Of a stretch of 64,000 nt of DNA, positions 17,327 through 27,236 are shown one piece after another (the stretch's first letter is position 1; each line of letters opens with the position of its first letter). The stretch lies in the sequence record MK373786.1. One strand, given 5' to 3'. The notes under the pieces were generated by a model. That model worked only from the letters and a program-made list of their open reading frames with translations, had not been told where the DNA came from and did not search any database. The stretch comes from Escherichia phage vB_EcoM_R5505. The translations under genes and the position numbers were made by a program.

Positions 17327-17379
17327 CCTCATGTTATGTCAGTAAGACTACTATAACACAACACGAGGGACTTGTAAAC
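17327..17379 (-). promoter_or_regulatory. Early promoter, copy 1 of a 53-nt repeat (GTTTAC-N18-TATAGT)
   Basis: Near-identical to 32653-32706 (2 mismatches in 53 nt); -35 GTTTAC (plus-strand gtaaac at 17374-17379). Confidence 0.65.
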
Positions 17380-19436
17380 TACATCTTGAACTTTTTAGAC
17401 ATTCCGTTGATGTTAACCAAAGAAGCCAAGATTTGAGAAACTTCGTTTTCCTCTTCTTTTGATTCTTCTACAAGGAATTGATTAAATCCAGCCATTGGAC
17501 GAACTTCACCAGTTTCCATTAAATGGTCGCCATCATATACTGATTCTTCTAATTGTTCAGAAGGAGGAACGATTGTACCTTCGATTAGATACTTGTTATA
17601 AGCAGTTTCTTTCATAAAGTACGTACTTACTTTATTAATCTTCAGTAAAATTCCACGCGGTAGAATAACTTCAGCTTCTGATGGAAATCCTGATAAATGA
17701 CCTGGAACGATAACTTTGATTCGCTCAGCTCCTTTAATTACCATACCCACGCTAGTTTCAGCATCTTCAATGGCATATGTAGAATGACTACCCATATGCA
17801 TTAAATCTTCTGCATCAACGGAACCTTCTCCTTCGCCAGAAAATACTGCGCCGGAATCATCTAGAGCCATATAGTTTTTACCATGCTCACCGAAGATATT
17901 TGGTTTAAGTGATGTCGATACGAAGTTCTTGAAATAGAACATTTTGTTTTCAATGTTATGACGCAAAGTTTTAAAGGTAACTTCTTGTCCACGGTAAAGT
18001 GTAGTTCCTGGAGGAAGAACTGATCCTTTGGCAAAGGCAGAATCCAACGTCTCGATGTGCTTAATAGCTCGTTCCATATATTCTTCACGGGTAGAATCTG
18101 GTTTACCCAAAAGGAACGAGTTCATTTCAACATATGAATCTGCACAATAATCTTCAATTACATCAGATTCAGCTTGGGTTAATCCTTTTGGAGTTACTTC
18201 GGTGCTTGCGTATTCATATGCCTGGGCAGCAGATTCATTAATCAATTTATAAATGCCATTCATGACAAATTGAATAATAGCTGTCTTTTCATCTGGCGTA
18301 GCTTTAGAACCTTTAACTAAATCATTAATAATTTTCTTAATAACATCAAAGCTATTAGAAATATTAATGTCAGCAAGATCGCTTAAAATTTTATCAGTTT
18401 TATAATCAAAGAATTCTTTATTCTTTAAATATTCTTGAGAACCTTGATATGTTATATCGCTCTGCAACTTGATAGATGGATCACGTAAACGTGCATGGGC
18501 TAATGCAATATGATTTCGGAAGTTTTCTAGTTCATAATCGTTAGATTTAAAACGAGAAGCACTTCTCATACCACCGATAGCTCCTTTGCTAAAGTTTGAA
18601 CCAATCTGGATAACCCCGGAGTTCATCGGACCTTCTGCTTTATATACCGGAACTTTAGATTCAAACTCTTGATATTTCTTGGCAGCGAAGCTATCACCCT
18701 GAAGTGAAGCATCAACAGTAGAATATTGAGCTTGTGCTGCTAATCGACGACTAATTTTAGTTTTCTGAATAACAGCTTGATCAGTGCGCTTATCATTTTC
18801 TAAAGCAATAGAAGCAGCAACAGCGACAGCTTTAGGAACAGCATTACCTGTTTTAACGTCTACATAAACATCACCAACCTTTGATTCAACTTTTGTGAAT
18901 AACTCAGTTGAAATAGGAGGTACACCTGGAATGTCTTCTAAATTGGCATTTTTACGGTAAACCATAATATATGCATACTTTTTATCATAGTCCCAGATTT
19001 CCTTTAAAAGAACATATCGACCTGCTCCTTTAGTACGTACTAAACGGTCAGCAATAACTTGCATTTGACGAGCTGCGCCATTTGTTTTACTCTTTAGTAC
19101 ACGGAATAAGCACGCGTCAATTTTGTACTGCTTCATTGTTTGAAGAGCAGTATCAAAAACAGCATTAATGACGCCAATTGGATTTCCACCCAAGTTTCTA
19201 AGCTTAACCAGCGATAATTTCTCGTTGACACCTATCATTACGATATGCATCATTTTATCGCCTGGTTTAACGTTTTTATTTGTATCACCACCAGAGGTGT
19301 ATGTACAAAATCTAAATCCAGGAAGAACGCTTTCTTCACCGGCTTGAATAGCAAAAATTTGAGGTATTTTATGCTTAGGATTTAAGTTAACAACCGGCGC
19401 CGAAGCGCCGTCAAATAATTCTGTAATAAGTTCCAT
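17379..19436 (-). CDS. Alt-like mono-ADP-ribosyltransferase, second paralog
   Basis: 685-aa ORF; N-terminus MELITELFD shared with the neighbouring Alt ORF; R-S-ExE signature (LYRGQ, FVSTSL, SEAEVILPRG). Confidence 0.88.
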   Translation of the reverse strand: MELITELFDGASAPVVNLNPKHKIPQIFAIQAGEESVLPGFRFCTYTSGGDTNKNVKPGDKMMHIVMIGVNEKLSLVKLRNLGGNPIGVINAVFDTALQTMKQYKIDACLFRVLKSKTNGAARQMQVIADRLVRTKGAGRYVLLKEIWDYDKKYAYIMVYRKNANLEDIPGVPPISTELFTKVESKVGDVYVDVKTGNAVPKAVAVAASIALENDKRTDQAVIQKTKISRRLAAQAQYSTVDASLQGDSFAAKKYQEFESKVPVYKAEGPMNSGVIQIGSNFSKGAIGGMRSASRFKSNDYELENFRNHIALAHARLRDPSIKLQSDITYQGSQEYLKNKEFFDYKTDKILSDLADINISNSFDVIKKIINDLVKGSKATPDEKTAIIQFVMNGIYKLINESAAQAYEYASTEVTPKGLTQAESDVIEDYCADSYVEMNSFLLGKPDSTREEYMERAIKHIETLDSAFAKGSVLPPGTTLYRGQEVTFKTLRHNIENKMFYFKNFVSTSLKPNIFGEHGKNYMALDDSGAVFSGEGEGSVDAEDLMHMGSHSTYAIEDAETSVGMVIKGAERIKVIVPGHLSGFPSEAEVILPRGILLKINKVSTYFMKETAYNKYLIEGTIVPPSEQLEESVYDGDHLMETGEVRPMAGFNQFLVEESKEEENEVSQILASLVNINGMSKKFKM

Positions 19437-19439
19437 GAT

Positions 19440-21530
19440 TTATCCTTGAACGAACTTGTAAGGCATGTTTGTAATATCTATGCAAGACGCAATAATTCCA
19501 AGAGATGATTCTACTTTCTGTTTAACATTTGATGAAACAAATGATGCAAAGTCAACTCTATCTTCTATATCACCTGTCATTGCAACTACTTCGCCGGTTT
19601 CCATTAAACGGTCACCGTCATAAATTACCGATTCGGTGAGTTCTTCTGTGGTCATAACTTCAGCTTGAATGAGTTTTGTATTATTAGACGTGGTTCCGTC
19701 ATTATTAGAAGCATCAGTTATTTTATTAACTTTAACCATCAATCCGCGCGGTAGAATAACTTCAGCTTCTGTTGCTATTCCTAGACTTCCTGGATATACA
19801 ACATTAACTTTATGTGCGCCGTCAATTGCCCATCCTATTTGAACTTTAACGTATTCAGGATTTTCTTTATACGCTCTTATTTCGTTTGGATTAATAGTTA
19901 TTCCTTCTTCATTTTTATCAACTGTCAATTCATTACGAGCTTCTGGTTCTAAAAGACCAATACCAGCATGTGTAATTCCAAAACGCCCAAAAATGATAGG
20001 AGTTAAAGAAGTAGATACAAAATTTCTGAAATAGAACACTTTATTTTTAACTAGCGCTTCGTATATAGGAGCAGTCATACTTTGAGCACGATAAACTGTA
20101 ATGCCTTCCGGTATGCGGTCACCATTTTCAAAAGCTGAATCTAAATTATTTATAGCAGATTCAATTTCTTTTTCACTCATTACATCATATCGTTCTGGAT
20201 TGTAACGACCTAAAAGAAGATTATTGATGTCAGTATATCCTGAACCACAATACTCTCTAATGCCGCGCTTTTGTGATGGAGTATATTTAGAACCATCACG
20301 AGCAATAGTAATATCAATCATTGGACCTGCACCAATTCCGGAAAAGCTATAAATCATTCGTTTGAGGAATTTAGTTTTTGCTGCGTTCCAGGAATTTTTA
20401 GTTATTTCTTCCCAGACTTCATCTGGTTGCCCTTTACGAGTTTTATTATGTTTATCAAGCCAATTATCTTTATATTCTTCAAAGAATTTATTAATAGCTG
20501 CTGCGTATTTCTCTAAACATTTTATTGAAGTAGTTGGTTCATTTTTTATCGCGTTAAAAATTACATCTTTAATTTTTTCGGAAACTTCATCAACCTCACT
20601 TTTTGAAAAGAATTTATAGTCATAGTGAAGTTCATTCGCAGTTCCTTCGGCAATAATTTTTGCTGCCTTAGTTTTAGAAGCTAATGAATTAATTCCAAGC
20701 TTCATTTCTTCTGCTTCGGGAATTAAAGGAGCGGTAGCGGGTTTATTGAAATTAGCTGCGGTAGATTCATACTTCTGAAATAATTCACTTTCAAATCTAG
20801 AAGATTCCAATGACTGACTTTGTGCAATTGCTCTACGGGAAATTTTAACTTTAACGATTACAGCTTGATCAGAACGTTTATCATTTTCTTGCGCAATAGA
20901 TGCTGCAATTGCCTCATTTTTAGTTACTTGAGCTCCAGTATCTTTATTGATATAAACATCACCGACCTTCGATTCAACTTTAGTAAAGAGCTCGGTACTA
21001 ATTTCCGGAACCCCTGGAATGTCTTCTAGTGATACATTTTTGCGATGTATAAGAATATATGCATACTTTTTATCGTAATCCCAGAGTTCCTTAAGAAGGA
21101 CGTATCTGCCACCTGAACGACTACGGATAAGTCTATCAGCAATAACCTGAATTTGTCGAGCTTGACCAGCGGTTTTAGACTTAAGAATACGAAGCATACA
21201 GGCATCAATTTTATACTGACGCATTGTTTGCATTGCAACAGTAAAAACTGAATTGATATAATTAATTGGGCTTGAACCAAGACCTTTCAATTTAGCAATT
21301 GAACCTTTAGCAGTTAATGTAAAAGGAACAATATGCATCATTTTATCGCCCATCTTTAAATCGCGATTAGTATCACCTCCAGATGTATAGGTACATAAAC
21401 GAAAGCCTGGTTGTTCAATTGCATCATCAACATGAACTGAAAAAATTTGTGGTATTTTCTTCTTTGGGTTTAAGTTTGTAATCGGAAGAGTAGTATCTTC
21501 GTCAAATAATTCTGTAATGAGTTCCATCAT
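19440..21530 (-). CDS. alt: Alt, packaged NAD-protein ADP-ribosyltransferase
   Basis: 696-aa ORF; R-S-ExE signature (VYRAQ, FVSTSL, TEAEVILPRG); late promoter immediately upstream. Confidence 0.88.
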   Translation of the reverse strand: MMELITELFDEDTTLPITNLNPKKKIPQIFSVHVDDAIEQPGFRLCTYTSGGDTNRDLKMGDKMMHIVPFTLTAKGSIAKLKGLGSSPINYINSVFTVAMQTMRQYKIDACMLRILKSKTAGQARQIQVIADRLIRSRSGGRYVLLKELWDYDKKYAYILIHRKNVSLEDIPGVPEISTELFTKVESKVGDVYINKDTGAQVTKNEAIAASIAQENDKRSDQAVIVKVKISRRAIAQSQSLESSRFESELFQKYESTAANFNKPATAPLIPEAEEMKLGINSLASKTKAAKIIAEGTANELHYDYKFFSKSEVDEVSEKIKDVIFNAIKNEPTTSIKCLEKYAAAINKFFEEYKDNWLDKHNKTRKGQPDEVWEEITKNSWNAAKTKFLKRMIYSFSGIGAGPMIDITIARDGSKYTPSQKRGIREYCGSGYTDINNLLLGRYNPERYDVMSEKEIESAINNLDSAFENGDRIPEGITVYRAQSMTAPIYEALVKNKVFYFRNFVSTSLTPIIFGRFGITHAGIGLLEPEARNELTVDKNEEGITINPNEIRAYKENPEYVKVQIGWAIDGAHKVNVVYPGSLGIATEAEVILPRGLMVKVNKITDASNNDGTTSNNTKLIQAEVMTTEELTESVIYDGDRLMETGEVVAMTGDIEDRVDFASFVSSNVKQKVESSLGIIASCIDITNMPYKFVQG

Positions 21531-21550
21531 ATCCTCTCTAGTGTTTATTC

Positions 21551-21558
21551 TATTTATA
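21551..21558 (-). promoter_or_regulatory. Late promoter (TATAAATA on minus strand) for alt
   Basis: Plus-strand tatttata, i.e. TATAAATA on the minus strand, about 25 nt upstream of alt ATG. Confidence 0.7.
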
Positions 21559-21563
21559 AAATT

Positions 21564-21581
21564 AAAGGCCCGAAGGCCTTT
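21564..21581. terminator. Terminator hairpin between the gene 30 operon and alt
   Basis: aaaggcc-cgaa-ggccttt. Confidence 0.75.
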
Positions 21582-21768
21582 AATAATCTATTGGTAAGAG
21601 AGTACGATATATTTCAAACTTTGGACCTTTTTCATAAGCATCAAAAGTTTCTGTGAATTTATTATAAGCATATGCATCTATAAATTCAATCATGATTTGT
21701 GATACAGAAGTAGAAACATCTCCACCTTCTTTTTGAGCCACGACAATTGTTTCTAAGTAAGCTTTCAT
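21580..21768 (-). CDS. Small hypothetical protein translationally coupled to DNA ligase
   Basis: 62-aa ORF; ATGA start/stop overlap with gene 30. Confidence 0.5.
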   Translation of the reverse strand: MKAYLETIVVAQKEGGDVSTSVSQIMIEFIDAYAYNKFTETFDAYEKGPKFEIYRTLLPIDY

Positions 21769-23228
21769 AAACCAGTTACCTCATGAAAATCACCAAATAC
21801 ATCCTCGAATGTATTAGCTTTAGTTTTATCTTCACGCAAACGAATCGCAATTGGAAGAAATAATTTAACGTAATCAGTGCGGCCATCGGATTTTAACCAA
21901 CCGTTGCATTCGCACTCTAGAATTTTTCCAATATAATAATTTTGGTTTTCCATAATGCGAGTACGGTCAAGTTCATGTGATTTTACGCCGGCTTTATCTT
22001 TTAAGCCTGAACCGGCATTTACCTTAATTTTTCCACACTCTGACTCAAGAATAAATCCACCTGCTTTAGTAGGGTCTTTACGGTGAGGATAAATTCCTAC
22101 AATTTTTAAATCAACATCAATTACTTCTTTAAATTTATAGAGATTTTTTGAACGAGCATTTTCCCATAATCCATCGATATTTTTGAGAATAATACCTTCA
22201 AGACCTTGGTCAATATACTTTTTATAAATTACCTTAGCTTCATCTAGGTTATTTACTACTTGGTTTTCAATTAAAATTACTTTATCATATCCTGATGTCA
22301 TTTGTTCTAATTTAGAAAAACGTACATCATATTTTAAACGAAATGCTGGAAGACCGTATATTTCTACCAACGGAACATAATCCCAGACCTGAAACTTCAT
22401 GCATTGAGCTTCTTTTTCTGAAATAGTTCCCTTTAAAGATTTATTAGCGATTCCATTAGAAGTAGTACGTGATTCAGCTACTTCAGCAAACTCTTTAGCT
22501 TTACTAATTTCAGGATAAGCATCAAAAAGAAAATCTAGGCCTTCTGGCTCCTTTTTAACTTGCTCATGGTATACCAATTCGCCATCAATTAACACACCTT
22601 CTGGATGAATCTGGCGGGCTTCAGCGGTCATTTTGATTAACTCTTCCTTAAGAAGATCTAATCCTAGATATTCATTACCAGCTCGTGATAAAAGACGGAC
22701 ATCATCTAATTCATCACCTCTAACTTCAGCAAAACACCGAGCTCCATCTGCTTTTAATTGTGCAAAGGCTGGAAATTTGATATTCTTACTAATGCCTTTT
22801 TCATCATAAGAACTTGCGAGCATTTGAGGTTGTTCAGGAATTAAACCTGGCCAAACTTTGTTTGCAATAGATACTGAAGCACCACATTCAAGGTCTCGCA
22901 TCATCACTCGACGCAAAACTTCAACATCATCTTTTTTACCATCGGTGATATATCCAGATAATTCCTCAATTGCCGCATTTCCGGTCAATTTCCGAGTAGC
23001 TAACGTGAATTCAATGAAGTCAAGCATATCGGTAAGAGTCAACATTCCAAAACTCTGGGTAGCAATACCAGATTTAGGCCATTTCTTGATATAATACTGC
23101 AACCCACGAGAATAAGTCAGACGATATACTCGTTTAAGCAATTCATTATCTTTATTCTTTTCAAGAATTGCTTGCTTCTGCTTAGTTGAACCAATAGATG
23201 CTATTTCGTTCAGAATTTTAAGAATCAT
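21765..23228 (-). CDS. 30: ATP-dependent DNA ligase gp30
   Basis: 487-aa ORF; adenylation lysine motif (QLKADGARCF); N-terminus MILKILNEIASIGSTKQKQAILEKN. Confidence 0.97.
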   Translation of the reverse strand: MILKILNEIASIGSTKQKQAILEKNKDNELLKRVYRLTYSRGLQYYIKKWPKSGIATQSFGMLTLTDMLDFIEFTLATRKLTGNAAIEELSGYITDGKKDDVEVLRRVMMRDLECGASVSIANKVWPGLIPEQPQMLASSYDEKGISKNIKFPAFAQLKADGARCFAEVRGDELDDVRLLSRAGNEYLGLDLLKEELIKMTAEARQIHPEGVLIDGELVYHEQVKKEPEGLDFLFDAYPEISKAKEFAEVAESRTTSNGIANKSLKGTISEKEAQCMKFQVWDYVPLVEIYGLPAFRLKYDVRFSKLEQMTSGYDKVILIENQVVNNLDEAKVIYKKYIDQGLEGIILKNIDGLWENARSKNLYKFKEVIDVDLKIVGIYPHRKDPTKAGGFILESECGKIKVNAGSGLKDKAGVKSHELDRTRIMENQNYYIGKILECECNGWLKSDGRTDYVKLFLPIAIRLREDKTKANTFEDVFGDFHEVTGL

Positions 23229-23494
23229 TGTTCATCCTTTAGAGTTTGGTTTACAGCTCTATTATAAATCAATTCATCATTAAGCTCAGTCAAAGACCTA
23301 TGGTACGTGGTTCTAACTTTATTTCCTTGCATCCAGTGCTTGACGTAAATGAAACCTTGCTCTACACATTTTTTAAAAATTCGTTCGTCTTTTTGAGCTC
23401 GGAATTCTGGATTGCATCTAAAAAATTGATTTACGTGACCGTAATCACGTGTAGTATTACCTTCATTTTCATAAATAGTGTGAACAACAAACAT
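23225..23494 (-). CDS. Hypothetical protein (T4 30.1 position)
   Basis: 89-aa ORF coupled on both sides. Confidence 0.7.
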   Translation of the reverse strand: MFVVHTIYENEGNTTRDYGHVNQFFRCNPEFRAQKDERIFKKCVEQGFIYVKHWMQGNKVRTTYHRSLTELNDELIYNRAVNQTLKDEQ

Positions 23495-24330
23495 TAGAAT
23501 GCTCCTTGGAAAATATTATCACCACTAGTAGGTCTATTATACAAATACTCTATGCCACCAGGTTTAATATAGTTCCATGTCTGAAACGGATGTGTCTGAT
23601 ATAGATGATATGGATTATAAGGATTAAATCCAGGAGTTCTCCAGGTAGTGTTCCAACGAAAAGAATCATTTTTAATCATCTTTTCAATTACATCTTTTAT
23701 AGCTTTTTCACTATCAAAACTTTCTTTATTTTCCTTTGGTGAAAAAAGCTTATTCTCTACATCGTTCCATGTATAAACTCGCTGAGCGGTTTTTGGAATA
23801 CTGTCACGTTCCCCTCGAGCCATCCAATACACAGGAACACGTAATATTTCACTCGCATGATCGCAGTGGTGAGCGAGATCGTCAATATAACAAATTACGT
23901 TATATTTCTCTTTTGCCTTTTTGAACAACTCTTCTTTTGAAGAATCATGACCACACATCATTACTTCTGAGAAGGCACCAGGAAAAAGAGCATTCAAATT
24001 AAATTGACGATTCAACAGAGCGTCAATAGAATCACCCAATGCTGTAACAGCTACAAAATTATAATCTTCTTTTAATTTGTTAATTACACACAGGGCATCT
24101 TTATATGGAGACAAGTAACGAATAAAATCTGAACGATTGTATTTTTCAATTAGCTTAACGCCAAGCTCTTCATCGCAATTAAATAGTTTACCTGGAGAGA
24201 TAAATTTCTCATCTTGGATCATTTTTAAAATATGTTCCAACGGAAGATTATATTTCTGAGCAAAATAAGGAAGACCTGATTGCCAGCTTAAACATACTCC
24301 ATCAATATCAGTTAAAATAGTAGGCTTCAT
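23494..24330 (-). CDS. HAD-superfamily phosphatase-like protein (T4 30.2 position)
   Basis: 278-aa ORF; HAD motif I DIDGV near the N-terminus and DD motif (YIDDLAHH); about 100-aa C-terminal extension. Confidence 0.75.
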   Translation of the reverse strand: MKPTILTDIDGVCLSWQSGLPYFAQKYNLPLEHILKMIQDEKFISPGKLFNCDEELGVKLIEKYNRSDFIRYLSPYKDALCVINKLKEDYNFVAVTALGDSIDALLNRQFNLNALFPGAFSEVMMCGHDSSKEELFKKAKEKYNVICYIDDLAHHCDHASEILRVPVYWMARGERDSIPKTAQRVYTWNDVENKLFSPKENKESFDSEKAIKDVIEKMIKNDSFRWNTTWRTPGFNPYNPYHLYQTHPFQTWNYIKPGGIEYLYNRPTSGDNIFQGAF

Positions 24331-24791
24331 AGAGAGTCTCTTAATAGGTTTAACACATCAATAAATTCAGCTTCGGTTAGTATTGTATCATCTTTTGTTA
24401 GACCACTAGCCATGCTGTGCTTCAAAACTTTTCCTTTCGAGGCTTGTAATGCATCACGAAAGCCCTTGTTTTGGATCGCTGCTTCAAAATATGCATTTGT
24501 GTATAATTCTTTCCACGCCGGGGAGTATCTTGAAAACGGAACTCCAATCCAGAAGAGGGTCCCACGGTCCTGAGCTCTAGCATAAGACCTTCCAGCTTGT
24601 TGGGCGGCAAGCCCGGATAACCCAAATATACGACGTTGTTGTTCAACATTTTTCACCTTACACCCTTGGAGGAATCCTTCAAGACCTCCAAATTGAATAC
24701 CATCCATAACGAAAGGCCATTGGGCGAAATTACTTAATGCGCATGATGGCCATCTAAAATTACTTCTAATCTCTAACTCAGACATTTTCAA
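24327..24791 (-). CDS. YbiA/NADAR-like (DUF1768) putative N-glycosidase/ADP-ribose-processing protein (T4 30.3 position)
   Basis: 154-aa ORF; LSNFAQWPFVMDGIQF...LEGFLQ resembles the E. coli YbiA core (FSNFAAWPIKVDGKTW...SEHYFQ) as I recall it. Confidence 0.7.
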   Translation of the reverse strand: MKMSELEIRSNFRWPSCALSNFAQWPFVMDGIQFGGLEGFLQGCKVKNVEQQRRIFGLSGLAAQQAGRSYARAQDRGTLFWIGVPFSRYSPAWKELYTNAYFEAAIQNKGFRDALQASKGKVLKHSMASGLTKDDTILTEAEFIDVLNLLRDSL

Positions 24792-24984
24792 TGCTTATAA
24801 TTTCAACATCAGCCCAATGACCATAGCAAGGAAGACGAAATTCAACTGGCCAGTTAGGGTCCTTTTCTAATATAATAGACTTAACTTGTGGTTCTTCGTG
24901 TTCATCAGTATACGGATTTTTATCTGTTACTTTATATGTGACCTTAATGTACTGAATTCCAAAAATCTTATTAATTATATTCAT
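24778..24984 (-). CDS. Hypothetical protein
   Basis: 68-aa ORF in a coupled early-gene array. Confidence 0.6.
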   Translation of the reverse strand: MNIINKIFGIQYIKVTYKVTDKNPYTDEHEEPQVKSIILEKDPNWPVEFRLPCYGHWADVEIISIENV

Positions 24985-25178
24985 ACTAATTCCTTTAATC
25001 CGTAGATAGGAGATAATTCATCACCCATACGAAGGTCTTCATTTCCATCTACCCAGGAAACAATATAAGCCTCTTTTATTTGAATACCACTCCATTTAAA
25101 TGGAGGTAGAACCTTAGAAATTAATCCAGGTATACCAACTCCCTTTAATTCAACGGTTTGACCTAAAAAGAATTTCAT
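24981..25178 (-). CDS. Hypothetical protein
   Basis: 65-aa ORF, coupled. Confidence 0.6.
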   Translation of the reverse strand: MKFFLGQTVELKGVGIPGLISKVLPPFKWSGIQIKEAYIVSWVDGNEDLRMGDELSPIYGLKELV

Positions 25179-25465
25179 TAAAACCTCATCTGAAAACCAT
25201 GCGATTTAACGTTACCACCGCCAATATCAGAAATATTAATTTCACGCGCAATTGAAGGGTCAATGTCAATTTCACGATTGAGTTTAGTGATAGCTAAAGT
25301 ATCGCGCCCATTTACAGTACGGAACTCTAAAGGACAAACCACATCAACGTAGTTTTTAATCGATTCACTAGTAGGCTGCAAATGAGCAGGAAGGTCTTTA
25401 GGCGCCTTTGAGAAAACCACTTCACAGAAATTTTTGCGGGTATCAAAATAAGTAGTCATAAACAT
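25178..25465 (-). CDS. Hypothetical protein
   Basis: 95-aa ORF, coupled. Confidence 0.65.
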   Translation of the reverse strand: MFMTTYFDTRKNFCEVVFSKAPKDLPAHLQPTSESIKNYVDVVCPLEFRTVNGRDTLAITKLNREIDIDPSIAREINISDIGGGNVKSHGFQMRF

Positions 25466-25481
25466 AATATTTTCCTCAGTA

Positions 25482-25497
25482 AGGGGCCGAAGCCCCT
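25482..25497. terminator. Hairpin aggggcc-gaag-cccct
   Basis: GC stem with GAAG loop between two minus-strand ORFs. Confidence 0.6.
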
Positions 25498-25507
25498 CAT
25501 TTTATTT

Positions 25508-25885
25508 TTAAATATCAAATTCGTTAAGAACTACATCAAAGATTGCTTCCAAGTGCTCAGGTTTAGCTTTGTTACTCAGAATATGACGAATCCAAGTTTT
25601 AACTAAGAGTTTACGATTAGCACCATTCCAGCAAGGATGAGTCCCTAAATCGCGTTGGCGGAAATCATCATCCAGAGCGATTTTGAAGTTGGAACCTTTC
25701 ATCGTGATTGAAACCGTGATACCGTTTTCAAATCGCATATAAACGTAGTTAGGAGTCATATACTGTTCAATTTCGCATACTGATCCGTTTTGATGTTTCC
25801 AGAGGCAAATAGTATCAATAGAACCTGCAATACCATTAGAAACATATTTACGTTCAAAGTTGATGTAGTTCATTTTATTCTCCAA
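25508..25885 (-). CDS. Hypothetical protein
   Basis: 125-aa ORF. Confidence 0.7.
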   Translation of the reverse strand: MENKMNYINFERKYVSNGIAGSIDTICLWKHQNGSVCEIEQYMTPNYVYMRFENGITVSITMKGSNFKIALDDDFRQRDLGTHPCWNGANRKLLVKTWIRHILSNKAKPEHLEAIFDVVLNEFDI

Positions 25886-25940
25886 GATGTTTAATTGCGG
25901 TACAGGTATATAATATCATATCCTGTACCAAAGTAAACAA

Positions 25941-26273
25941 TTATTTTACTACTTTCCAATGCTGCATGTCAAGTTTACCAACTTTTTTCATCTTCTCAAT
26001 TAAGCGTTCTGCACGTTGGCGAGCTGTAACATAATGCCATTCGCCTAATTCATTTTGTTCAATTTTTCCAACGATTACTGTATTCAATTCATAAATCCAA
26101 CCAGTAAAGAAATTATGAACTTGAATTGTAAAGGTGAAATCTGTTCCCATACCTTCTGTTGTTTCTACTTCAATAATATCACCTTCAACTGCCATTAAGA
26201 ACCACATAGTTTCATTATATTTACCATTGAAGCATTTAGTTTTAACTGCAGCGTTCAGATTAATCGTTTTCAT
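25941..26273 (-). CDS. Hypothetical protein
   Basis: 110-aa ORF preceded by an early promoter. Confidence 0.7.
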   Translation of the reverse strand: MKTINLNAAVKTKCFNGKYNETMWFLMAVEGDIIEVETTEGMGTDFTFTIQVHNFFTGWIYELNTVIVGKIEQNELGEWHYVTARQRAERLIEKMKKVGKLDMQHWKVVK

Positions 26274-26300
26274 TTTATTCTCCTTTGTTTGTGTAAGATA

Positions 26301-26330
26301 ATACTATCACAAAGGAACTATACTGTAAAC
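26301..26330 (-). promoter_or_regulatory. Early promoter (GTTTACA-N17/18-TAGTAT)
   Basis: On the minus strand GTTTACAgtatagttcctttgtgaTAGTAT upstream of ORF 25941-26273. Confidence 0.6.
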
Positions 26331-26360
26331 AACTTTATGCAATCTTTGGAAAATAAAAAA

Positions 26361-26378
26361 GGACTCCCGAAGGAGTCC
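26361..26378. terminator. Hairpin ggactcc-cgaa-ggagtcc
   Basis: 9-bp GC-rich stem flanked by A-run and T-run. Confidence 0.7.
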
Positions 26379-26383
26379 TCAAC

Positions 26384-26560
26384 TTATGCTTTCTGCTTAC
26401 CAAAACGAGAAGCATCATCTCGAAGAACCGCACGTGCTCGGCGCATGATCTTCTCAACAGTTTGATTGATACGAGAGTTCGACCCACGCTTGTAACCAGC
26501 GCGTTTAGAATCACCAACTTTCTTTTCAACTGCTTTCTTTGCTTTAACTTGTTTTGCCAT
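26384..26560 (-). CDS. Small highly basic protein, possible nucleic-acid binder
   Basis: 58 aa from MAKQVKAKKAVEKK (AAAGAGAA Shine-Dalgarno); the track ORF extends to 26602 with a weaker start. Confidence 0.55.
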   Translation of the reverse strand: MAKQVKAKKAVEKKVGDSKRAGYKRGSNSRINQTVEKIMRRARAVLRDDASRFGKQKA

Positions 26561-26848
26561 TATAAATTCTCTTTTAAATGAAAATGCAGGACTTATTGAC
26601 ATTGCCTGCGCAAGCCCTCAAGGGGAACATAGGTTTTTGGATATTTAACGACCAGGATAACCATAAACCCGTCATCATACCACCAAGACTTATACAGATA
26701 ACACTTTTCTGACGCATGATAGTAACATTCAAGAGGTACACCGTAAAACTGTCGGGGTCTTAAAACTATAATGATTCGCAAATCATTAATCAGACAGTTC
26801 GACGGCTCCTCGATTTAGCTCACACTAAGGCAGTGAATCTCCAATAAA

Positions 26849-27097
26849 TTACTTCAATGTTACCACAAAGTGACGAACTGCTTTTCGTGCAGCAGAAGCC
26901 AAAGGCTTAGCATATTTAAGTTCATCTTTTTCCTGAAGCTCAGCAGCTAATGCAGTTTGAGCGGGATTCAGATGTTTGAAATAACGCAGGATTTCAAGAG
27001 CTTCGGCTTCAACATCAATAGATGCGCCATAGTTTTCGTGACCATTATTCCATGCGTTTCGTTGCAGTTCAAGAGCGTGTTGTAATTGTTTAATCAT
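26849..27097 (-). CDS. rIII: rIII lysis-inhibition accessory protein
   Basis: 82-aa ORF at the expected position between the gene 30 cluster and gene 31. Confidence 0.85.
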   Translation of the reverse strand: MIKQLQHALELQRNAWNNGHENYGASIDVEAEALEILRYFKHLNPAQTALAAELQEKDELKYAKPLASAARKAVRHFVVTLK

Positions 27098-27236
27098 TTA
27101 AAAATTCTCGTTAGAGATTAAAACTCGGTAGTCACGTTCTTCTGAATTTCATCTTCTTTCGACAGATCTCTCAGTTGTAGACTACCACATAGAATTGTTC
27201 GGTTAACTTATTATTCCGACACCCAATTCATATTAT

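What the first reader, a model, noticed from the sequence alone, without database searches (positions are those of the whole stretch)
23494..24791. HAD-phosphatase-like and YbiA/NADAR-like genes coupled downstream of DNA ligase
ORF 23494-24330 has a HAD motif I (DIDGV) and a DD motif; ORF 24327-24791 carries the SNFAxWP...DG...E core of the YbiA/DUF1768 (NADAR) family. NADAR enzymes process ADP-ribose adducts, including reversal of DNA ADP-ribosylation, so together with the two Alt transferases 3 kb away this reads like a phage module for NAD/ADP-ribose chemistry, possibly counter-defence against ADP-ribosylating toxins. Function in this phage is, to my knowledge, unproven.
Basis: inference. 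Interest (0 to 1): 0.55.

Follow-up and report, generated by a model that had tools for sequence, protein, structure and literature searches.

The report
T4 adfN and neighbouring HAD phosphatase
These are phage T4 genes 30.3 and 30.2: the first is AdfN, already shown by experiment to strip ADP-ribose from phage DNA and defeat the bacterial DarTG1 defence, and the second is a dispensable HAD-type phosphatase of unknown substrate that is not needed for that defence evasion.

Summary
The window comes from a T4-like phage (Tequatrovirus), 99.6% identical here to Escherichia phage KarlGJung/Bas37. Both ORFs are real and lie on the minus strand. They are T4 genes 30.2 (98% identical) and 30.3 (150 of 152 residues identical).

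Gene 30.3 is a NADAR-fold enzyme. It matches Pfam Phage_30_3 at E 4.5e-70, and the three best PDB fold matches are the three NADAR structures. E36, K43 and H123 are present. Its function is published: it is AdfN, a DNA ADP-ribosylglycohydrolase that is necessary and sufficient for T-even phages to overcome DarTG1.

Gene 30.2 is a HAD-superfamily phosphatase. All four catalytic motifs are invariant or nearly so, and the core model is confident (pLDDT about 97). Its distant relatives link it to the NT5C deoxyribonucleotidase family. Its substrate is unknown.

The proposed "NAD/ADP-ribose module" is not supported:
- 30.2 stays next to the DNA ligase in 71 of 77 loci, but 30.3 is nearby in only 36.
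- In 9 of 25 genomes that carry both genes, 30.3 lies 54–69 kb away.
- In a published T4 transposon screen on DarTG1, 30.3 insertions are lost (log2FC −7.25), while 30.2 (−0.12) and alt (−0.01) insertions are neutral.

The core of the finding is already known. Only the role of 30.2 remains open.

The parts
24327..24785 (-). Gene 30.3 = adfN (152 aa), a NADAR-fold DNA ADP-ribosylglycohydrolase. An alternative TTG start lies at 24791.
   Evidence: ORF list. T4 annotation. 150/152 identical to T4 gp30.3. PF08010 at E 4.5e-70. AF2 model pLDDT 94.3. The top three PDB fold hits are the NADAR structures 2b3w, 8bau and 8bat. Function shown in PMC11825919 and PMC11125620.
24678..24680 (-). Codon of AdfN Glu36, a catalytic residue; the E36A mutant is inactive in T4.
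   Evidence: Read from the sequence. Invariant in 49/49 family members. Aligns with the Glu of YbiA 'SEHYFQAQK'. Mutagenesis reported in the AdfN preprint 10.1101/2024.07.11.602962 (published as PMC11825919).
24657..24659 (-). Codon of AdfN Lys43, a catalytic residue; the K43A mutant is inactive in T4.
   Evidence: Read from the sequence. Conserved in 48/49 members. Mutagenesis reported in the AdfN preprint 10.1101/2024.07.11.602962 (published as PMC11825919).
24417..24419 (-). Codon of AdfN His123. This last-strand residue replaces the Glu of YbiA and the Asp of DarT-linked NADARs, and marks the phage gp30.3 subfamily.
   Evidence: Read from the sequence. Invariant in 49/49 members. Described in PMC11125620.
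23743..24330 (-). Gene 30.2, residues 1-196: HAD-superfamily phosphatase core with a helical cap inserted after motif I (residues about 16-86).
24301..24309 (-). Codons of HAD motif I, Asp8-Ile9-Asp10: the nucleophile and the general acid/base.
   Evidence: Read from the sequence. D8 and D10 are invariant in 42/42 close and 61/61 distant relatives.
23878..23883 (-). Codons of HAD motif IV, Asp150-Asp151 (Mg2+ ligands).
   Evidence: Read from the sequence. Conserved in 41/42 members.
23494..23742 (-). Gene 30.2, residues 197-278 plus the stop codon: a lineage-variable C-terminal tail, mostly predicted disordered and rich in aromatic residues, Pro and Asn.
   Evidence: pLDDT 40-64 apart from one helix at 207-220. 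The tail is absent or different in many orthologues; family lengths run from 176 to 316 aa.
24327..24330 (-). ATGA overlap of the 30.3 stop and the 30.2 start (translational coupling).
   Evidence: Junction sequence.
24778..24984 (-). Gene 30.4 (context). Its stop overlaps the adfN ATG by 8 nt.
   Evidence: It is the only other significant gene in the T4 DarTG1 transposon screen (log2FC -1.79, padj 0.014).
23225..23494 (-). Gene 30.1 (DUF3045), context.
   Evidence: PF11243 at E 2.9e-64. T4 map.
21765..23228 (-). Gene 30, ATP-dependent DNA ligase (context). It is the conserved downstream neighbour of 30.2.
   Evidence: Ligase follows 30.2 in 71 of 77 viral loci.

Best explanation
The two ORFs are the T4 early-region genes 30.3 and 30.2, in a Tequatrovirus almost identical here to phage KarlGJung/Bas37. 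They are adjacent and translationally coupled, but they work independently.

(1) Gene 30.3 is AdfN. It is a single-domain NADAR-fold glycohydrolase. The host toxin DarT1 attaches ADP-ribose to guanine in the phage's single-stranded DNA, and AdfN cuts it off. Replication can then proceed in DarTG1-carrying hosts. Its catalytic residues are Glu36 and Lys43, and the subfamily has His123 in the last strand. The activity and the phenotype are shown experimentally for the 99%-identical T4 protein. For the window protein they are inferred from that identity.

(2) Gene 30.2 is a Mg2+-dependent phosphomonoesterase of the HAD superfamily. Asp8 is the nucleophile and Asp10 the general acid/base, with Thr96, Lys132 and Asp150/Asp151 completing the motifs. 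It has a helical C1-type cap, which points to a small-molecule substrate. Its nearest family by sequence bridging is NT5C, the 5'(3')-deoxyribonucleotidases. The most likely reaction is therefore dephosphorylation of a nucleoside or deoxynucleoside monophosphate. This is an inference, and no substrate has been shown.

Gene 30.2 is dispensable in the laboratory, is not needed for DarTG1 evasion, and is evolutionarily tied to the DNA ligase gene rather than to adfN.
For: Identity of the locus:
- 99.6% DNA identity to MZ501089.
- Same gene order as T4.
- gp30.3 is 150/152 and gp30.2 272/278 identical to T4.

AdfN:
- PF08010 at E 4.5e-70.
- The family profile hits YbiA 2b3w at E 0.006 across the SNF...E..FQ..K motif.
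- 21 of 49 family members hit Pfam NADAR, best E 1.5e-7.
- The model has pLDDT 94.3, and its only significant PDB fold matches are the three NADAR structures.
- E36 and H123 are invariant, and K43 is present in 48/49.
- Published work: gp30.3 removes guanine-ADP-ribose but not thymine-ADP-ribose in vitro (PMC11125620).
- Published work: it is necessary and sufficient against DarTG1, and E36A and K43A mutants are inactive (10.1101/2024.07.11.602962 = PMC11825919).
- T4 insertions in 30.3 are lost on DarTG1, log2FC -7.25.

gp30.2:
- HAD motifs I-IV are invariant or nearly so.
- The core model is confident.
- The family profile hits mouse 5'(3')-deoxyribonucleotidase at E 0.018, aligning Trp16 with a Phe of the enzyme.
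- 22 of 60 distant relatives hit Pfam NT5C, best E 3.4e-9.

Independence of the two genes:
- Synteny counts.
- 30.2 is neutral under DarTG1, log2FC -0.12, p 0.61.
- 30.2 is non-essential in T4 (72/72 sites hit) and in Bas37 (69/71).
Against: - The window's 30.3 has no direct hit to Pfam NADAR PF08719, and its sequence match to YbiA covers only the N-terminal half.
- The window's 30.2 has no Pfam hit at E<=0.1.
- AdfN works fully only during T-even infection, and the authors suspect an unidentified helper. The mechanism may be incomplete.
- The transposon screen tests only whether 30.2 is required, in one host and on one plasmid-borne DarTG1.
Confidence: 0.85

Rival explanations
1. One reading: 30.2, 30.3 and the two Alt ADP-ribosyltransferases form one NAD/ADP-ribose module. 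In it, the HAD phosphatase would process the ADP-ribose-derived product of the NADAR enzyme, or would be the T-even-specific helper that AdfN needs.
For: - ATGA translational coupling of 30.3 and 30.2.
- The two genes are adjacent in Tequatrovirus, Mosigvirus and some other genera.
- RB69, in which ectopic AdfN works fully, has an intact 30.2.
- The authors state that another factor is likely needed.
- Both genes occur in about 1,450-1,500 phage records with the same host spectrum.
Against: - T4 insertions in 30.2 (71 sites, log2FC -0.12, p 0.61) and in alt (-0.01) are neutral under DarTG1, while 30.3 is lost.
- Only 36 of 77 loci with 30.2 have 30.3 within 6 kb, and in 9 of 25 genomes the two genes are 54-69 kb apart.
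- AdfN alone removes ADP-ribose in vitro and rescues RB69.
- The released ADP-ribose has no phosphomonoester for a HAD phosphatase to act on (established chemistry).
- Alt targets host proteins (annotation).
Confidence: 0.06
2. gp30.2 is a DNA-end 3'-phosphatase that prepares nicks for the adjacent DNA ligase, as an end-healing and sealing pair.
For: - Ligase lies immediately downstream of 30.2 in 71 of 77 loci across very diverse T4-like phages.
- Weak PHROG hit to polynucleotide kinase, E 0.003.
Against: - The model has a helical cap of about 70 residues between motifs I and II. Such caps are typical of small-molecule HAD enzymes, and the T4 Pnkp match covers only the 126-128-residue core.
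- T4 already encodes PseT.
- Gene order is highly conserved in T4-like phages in general, so adjacency is weak evidence.
- 30.2 is non-essential whereas the ligase is essential.
Confidence: 0.08
3. gp30.3 is a YbiA-type housekeeping N-glycosidase acting on riboflavin-pathway intermediates rather than on DNA adducts.
For: - The best fold match is E. coli YbiA.
- Some metagenome homologues are labelled 'YbiA (DUF1768 family)'.
Against: - The last-strand Glu that defines the YbiA family is His in all 49 family members (PMC11125620).
- Direct assays and genetics show DNA de-ADP-ribosylation and DarTG1 counter-defence.
Confidence: 0.02
4. gp30.2 is a catalytically dead HAD-fold protein with a structural or binding role, acting through its variable C-terminal tail.
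For: - It is non-essential.
- The long disordered tail carries a short conserved patch in some genera.
Against: - All catalytic residues (D8, D10, T/S96, K132, D151) are invariant or nearly so, down to relatives with about 25% identity. This argues for selection on catalysis.
Confidence: 0.04

Closest known systems
T4 AdfN (gp30.3), anti-DarT factor NADAR (Nat Commun 2025, PMC11825919; Toxins 2024, PMC11125620)
   Same: 150 of 152 residues identical. Same length, with the C-terminal helix intact. Same E36, K43 and H123. Same position between 30.4 and 30.2.
   Different: Two conservative substitutions only (I80 for L, M125 for I). Nothing of functional note.
DarG1 / BC4488-type NADAR antitoxins (e.g. 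Geobacter lovleyi NADAR, 8bat)
   Same: Same fold and the same chemistry, removal of ADP-ribose from guanine. The literature places them as the closest NADAR clade.
   Different: AdfN has no N-terminal extension and no adjacent DarT. It has His in place of the last-strand Asp. It cannot replace DarG1 in uninfected cells.
E. coli YbiA (2b3w), YbiA family of the NADAR superfamily
   Same: Best structural match (E 1.1e-4, TMq 0.68). Shares the SNF...E..FQ..K motif.
   Different: 18% identity. The last-strand Glu is replaced by His. YbiA is a housekeeping enzyme, whereas AdfN is a counter-defence enzyme.
NT5C family: cytosolic and mitochondrial 5'(3')-deoxyribonucleotidases (2jao, 2i7d, 1q92; Pfam PF06941)
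   Same: For gp30.2: same HAD fold with a helical cap. The DxDGV motif I is followed by an aromatic residue. Profile hit at E 0.018. 22 of 60 distant relatives hit PF06941. Among the best fold matches.
   Different: The window protein itself does not reach the Pfam threshold. It has an extra C-terminal tail of about 80 residues. Identity is 16-21%. The substrate is untested.
T4 PseT (Pnkp) 3'-phosphatase domain (1ltq, 5uj0)
   Different: Only the 126-128 core residues of Pnkp align with gp30.2, whose model has a helical cap of about 70 residues. Pnkp acts on nucleic-acid ends (established knowledge).

Membership tests
NADAR superfamily | [quoted passage not shown] | tested here: met
   AF2 model with pLDDT 94.3. 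The only PDB matches with probability >=0.98 are YbiA 2b3w, PnNADAR 8bau and Geobacter NADAR 8bat.
NADAR superfamily | Conserved N-terminal catalytic Glu and Lys (E36 and K43 in AdfN numbering) | tested here: met
   Both are present in the window protein. E36 is in 49/49 and K43 in 48/49 family members. They align with the YbiA motif.
NADAR superfamily | Significant match to the Pfam NADAR model PF08719 | tested here: inconclusive
   The window protein has no hit at E<=1, but 21 of 49 family members do, best E 1.5e-7.
Phage gp30.3 / AdfN subfamily (Pfam PF08010) | Match to PF08010 above the gathering score | tested here: met
   234.3 bits against a cut-off of 36, E 4.5e-70.
Phage gp30.3 / AdfN subfamily (Pfam PF08010) | Histidine in the last strand, in place of Glu (YbiA) or Asp (BC4488) | tested here: met
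   H123 is present and invariant in 49/49 members. The criterion comes from PMC11125620.
Phage gp30.3 / AdfN subfamily (Pfam PF08010) | Intact C-terminal helix; RB69's truncation by 15 residues is inactive | tested here: met
   Full length of 152 aa, with a C-terminus identical to T4. Helix 138-151 in the model. The RB69 gene is 414 nt.
Phage gp30.3 / AdfN subfamily (Pfam PF08010) | Hydrolysis of guanine-linked ADP-ribose on DNA, and DarTG1 counter-defence | not testable with these tools
   Shown for the 99%-identical T4 protein. Inferred for the window protein.
YbiA family (strict sense) | Glutamate in the last strand | tested here: not met
   His123 occupies the position (PMC11125620).
DarT-associated (BC4488/DarG1) NADAR antitoxins | Adjacent DarT toxin gene, N-terminal extension, Asp in the last strand | tested here: not met
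   The neighbours are T4 genes 30.4 and 30.2. The protein is 152 aa with no extension. It has His in place of Asp.
HAD superfamily phosphatases | Motif I DxD (nucleophile plus Asp+2 acid/base), motif II Thr/Ser, motif III Lys, motif IV acidic pair | tested here: met
   D8, D10 and K132 are invariant. Position 96 is Thr in 40 and Ser in 2. D150 and D151 are in 41/42. All are kept in 61 distant relatives.
HAD superfamily phosphatases | Rossmann-like HAD core fold | tested here: met
HAD superfamily phosphatases | Mg2+-dependent phosphatase activity | not testable with these tools
   No papers were found for 'gp30.2' or for '30.2' + 'phage T4' + 'haloacid dehalogenase'.
NT5C 5'(3')-deoxyribonucleotidase family (PF06941) | Match to PF06941 above the gathering score | tested here: inconclusive
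   The window protein has no hit. 7 of 42 close relatives hit weakly, best E 1.2e-4. 22 of 60 distant relatives hit, best E 3.4e-9, and P0365 scores 36.8 bits against a cut-off of 24.8.
NT5C 5'(3')-deoxyribonucleotidase family (PF06941) | Specificity for deoxyribonucleoside monophosphates | not testable with these tools
   Only an alignment of Trp16 and the SxFIxYL stretch with the corresponding stretch (Phe and PGFFLNL) of mouse cdN (2jao) is available.
Pnkp-type polynucleotide 3'-phosphatase | Capless HAD core that accepts nucleic-acid ends | tested here: not met
   A helical cap spans residues about 16-86. The match to 1ltq and 5uj0 covers only 126-128 core residues.

The most novel reading that the evidence does not exclude
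gp30.2 may be an uncharacterised counter-defence or nucleotide-pool enzyme. It is an NT5C-like nucleotidase kept next to the DNA ligase in nearly all T4-like phages (at least 1,450 genomes) yet dispensable in the laboratory. It could destroy a monophosphorylated toxic or signalling nucleotide made by a host defence that has not yet been tested. Alternatively, it could be the unidentified T-even factor that lets AdfN work at full efficiency, in a way that a loss-of-function screen on plasmid-borne DarTG1 does not reveal.
Probability: 0.12. Interest if true: 0.55.

Novelty: already known. Interest (0 to 1): 0.15.

Why it matters
The main result is a correction. The "possibly counter-defence, unproven" NADAR gene is AdfN, a characterised enzymatic anti-DarTG1 factor. 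It is still labelled "hypothetical protein" in almost all of the roughly 1,500 phage records that carry it, so annotation lags behind the literature.

The proposed link between the HAD gene, the Alt transferases and AdfN does not survive synteny analysis or published transposon data.

What remains open is modest. The substrate and role of gp30.2 are unknown, although it is a conserved and apparently active phosphatase. The factor that makes AdfN fully active only in T-even infections has also not been identified.

Tried and rejected
- Direct sequence searches of both proteins against PDB chains gave nothing significant, E>=1. Profiles were needed.
- NCBIfam gave nothing useful.
- The promoter and terminator scan of 21500-27200 found no more sites than shuffled sequence, so it gave no evidence on transcription units.
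- I considered gp30.2 as the T-even helper of AdfN, because of the ATGA coupling and its presence in RB69. I rejected it as a required factor because 30.2 insertions are neutral under DarTG1.
- I considered a ligase-coupled DNA 3'-phosphatase role. I ranked it low because of the cap domain.
- Pfam scans of fusion proteins in the wider 30.2-like family (P0276, P0330, P0226, P0263) identified no partner domain that could hint at a substrate.
- The neighbours of a relocated adfN homologue (L060) are unannotated small ORFs and gave no information.
- Literature searches for 'gp30.2', and for 30.2 combined with haloacid dehalogenase, found nothing.
Full report
**What is there.** The window is a piece of a T4-like phage. 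The 1.8 kb around the finding is 99.6% identical to Escherichia phage KarlGJung (MZ501089, also called Bas37), and 95–99% identical to several hundred other Tequatrovirus records. All genes in this stretch are on the minus strand. Compared with the T4 reference, the order in the direction of transcription is 30.6, 30.5, 30.4, 30.3, 30.2, 30.1, 30 (DNA ligase), alt.1, alt.

- ORF 24327–24791 is gene 30.3. T4 annotates the ATG at 24785, giving 152 aa, of which 150 are identical to T4.
- The genes are packed with overlapping stops and starts: ATGA between 30.3 and 30.2, TAATG between 30.2 and 30.1, and an 8-nt overlap between 30.4 and 30.3.
- Because transcription runs from high to low coordinates, both genes lie upstream of the ligase, not downstream as the title says.

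**Gene 30.3.**
- The protein matches Pfam PF08010 (Phage_30_3) at E 4.5e-70, and has no other Pfam family.
- A search of the large protein collection found 104 relatives. All carry PF08010, one also carries PF08719 (NADAR), and several JGI entries are named "YbiA (DUF1768 family)".
- In a 49-sequence alignment, S18, N19, F20, E36, Q40, R86 and H123 are invariant, and K43 is present in 48.
- A profile of that alignment hits E. coli YbiA (2b3w) at E 0.006 over the SNF…E..FQ..K motif only.
- 21 of the 49 members hit the Pfam NADAR model (best E 1.5e-7). The window protein itself does not.
- An AlphaFold2 model built with the alignment has a mean pLDDT of 94.3.
- Its only meaningful PDB matches by Foldseek are the three solved NADAR structures: YbiA (E 1.1e-4, TMq 0.68), Phytophthora NADAR with ADP-ribose (8bau) and Geobacter lovleyi NADAR (8bat). 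Everything below them has a probability of 0.03 or less.

The protein is therefore a NADAR-superfamily member of the phage gp30.3 subfamily. It is not a YbiA-family member in the strict sense, because the last-strand Glu is replaced by His123.

**This is already published.**
- A 2024 paper (PMC11125620) cloned T4 gp30.3. It removes ADP-ribose from guanosine, but not from thymidine, in ssDNA in vitro, and it cannot rescue DarT1 toxicity in uninfected cells. The paper describes the last-strand His as the mark of phage NADARs.
- A 2024 preprint, published in Nat Commun in 2025 (PMC11825919), mapped DarTG1 resistance of T-even phages to gene 30.3 by phage crosses and renamed it adfN. It showed that the gene is necessary and sufficient, that E36A and K43A mutants are inactive, and that RB69 is sensitive because a frameshift removes the last 15 residues. 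I confirmed that the RB69 gene is shortened to 414 nt.
- A 2025 preprint (HIDEN-SEQ, 10.1101/2025.11.20.689424) found that T4 transposon insertions in 30.3 are lost on a DarTG1 host.

The window protein keeps E36, K43, H123 and the full C-terminal helix. It can therefore be assigned the same function with high confidence, by inference from 99% identity.

**Gene 30.2.**
- The protein has no Pfam or NCBIfam family. It belongs to phrog_420, of unknown function.
- Relatives are confined to T4-like phages of many hosts, with 100–140 clusters in the word-indexed search and 1452 phage records by tblastn. A few records call it "HAD-superfamily hydrolase", "putative phosphatase" or "5'(3')-deoxyribonucleotidase".
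- In a 42-sequence alignment, D8, D10, G11, W16, S18, R108, N111 and K132 are invariant. Position 96 is Thr in 40 and Ser in 2, and D150 and D151 are present in 41. These are HAD motifs I to IV with the DxD signature of phosphatases.
- The AlphaFold2 model is very confident for residues 1–196 (pLDDT about 97). It shows a helical insert after motif I, which is a C1-type cap. Residues 200–278 are mostly disordered. This tail is variable or absent in other genera, and family lengths run from 176 to 316 aa.
- Foldseek returns 102 PDB matches at E≤1e-3, and all 50 listed are HAD-superfamily proteins or HAD-derived designs. Among them are the cytosolic and mitochondrial 5'(3')-deoxyribonucleotidases and a staphylococcal deoxyribonucleotidase-like protein.
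- The family profile hits mouse deoxyribonucleotidase 2jao at E 0.018.
- An exhaustive profile search found 1398 cluster representatives at E≤1e-3, mostly stand-alone proteins of 190–215 aa. Of 60 distant ones, 22 hit Pfam NT5C (best E 3.4e-9), and one scores above the curated threshold.

The protein is an apparently active HAD phosphatase, and NT5C is its nearest named family. A nucleoside or deoxynucleoside monophosphate is the most likely substrate. This is an inference. I found no paper on gp30.2.

**Are the two genes, and Alt, one module?**

*Synteny.* I collected 80 viral loci around 30.3 homologues and 77 around 30.2 homologues.
- Of the 77 loci with 30.2, 71 have the ligase gene immediately downstream on the same strand. 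Only 36 have a 30.3 homologue within 6 kb.
- Among 25 contigs that hold both genes, the loci are 0.5–1.8 kb apart in 16 and 54–69 kb apart in 9.
- In one of the relocated cases the adfN homologue sits among small unannotated ORFs.
- So 30.2 travels with the ligase, and adfN moves independently.

*Genetics.* In the T4 HIDEN-SEQ table for control versus DarTG1, only two genes are significant.

| Gene | log2FC | p or adjusted p |
|---|---|---|
| 30.3 | −7.25 | adjusted p 0 |
| 30.4 (immediately upstream) | −1.79 | adjusted p 0.014 |
| 30.2 (71 sites) | −0.12 | p 0.61 |
| 30.1 | −0.01 | not significant |
| alt | −0.01 | not significant |

Gene 30.2 is also non-essential in T4 (72 of 72 sites hit) and in Bas37, the closest relative of this window (69 of 71 sites hit).

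*Chemistry.* ADP-ribose released by AdfN carries no phosphomonoester. Alt is annotated as modifying host RNA polymerase and other host proteins.

The module reading is therefore not supported. One caveat remains. The Nat Commun paper reports that AdfN is fully active only in T-even infections and suggests an unidentified helper. The transposon data show that 30.2 is not required, but they do not test whether it can enhance AdfN.

**Verdict.** It is out of date on the key point, because the function is proven. It is wrong on the coupling and on the gene order relative to the ligase. The finding is already known, and the residual interest lies in the uncharacterised but conserved gp30.2.

Noticed in passing
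window 24778-24984 (minus), gene 30.4: This 68-aa ORF has a stop that overlaps the adfN start by 8 nt. It is the only other significant gene in the published T4 DarTG1 transposon screen (log2FC -1.79, padj 0.014). That could be polarity on adfN or a role of its own. It has no Pfam family.
   Followed up: partly
window 17379-19436 and 19440-21530 (minus): There are two full-length Alt ADP-ribosyltransferase paralogues, 41% identical. T4 has one alt plus the short remnants alt.-1 and alt.-2. The Bas37 table names them Alt2 and Alt, and rates Alt2 as 'Intermediate' in essentiality.
   Followed up: partly
window 24422-24649 (minus): A 75-aa ORF lies in another frame inside adfN. It corresponds to the T4 annotation 30.3' ('internal translation in a different reading frame'). 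I gathered no evidence on whether it is expressed.
   Followed up: no
window 23497-23742 (minus), gp30.2 residues 197-278: The C-terminal tail is mostly predicted disordered and rich in Trp, Tyr, Pro and Asn. It has one helix and a short patch (…GIEYL.N.PT…) conserved in several enterobacterial genera, and it is absent from many orthologues. It may be a protein-binding tail.
   Followed up: partly
L029, L032, L040, L041, L059, L060, L069, L078, L079 versus L146, L121, L153, L098, L115, L102, L109, L101, L099: In nine T4-like genomes the adfN homologue lies 54-69 kb away from the 30.2-ligase block. In L060 it sits among small unannotated ORFs. This suggests adfN has been relocated or acquired independently within the family.
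   Followed up: partly
proteins P0276 (591 aa), P0330 (660 aa), P0226 (430 aa), P0263 (365 aa): These members of the wider 30.2-like HAD family are fused to large extra regions with no Pfam match. The partner domains might hint at the substrate.
   Followed up: partly
phage records listed: Nearly all GenBank and RefSeq phage records listed still label adfN (30.3) as 'hypothetical protein', despite the 2024-2025 functional papers. Some records mislabel neighbouring genes here as 'putative baseplate hub' or 'tail tube cap'.
   Followed up: no
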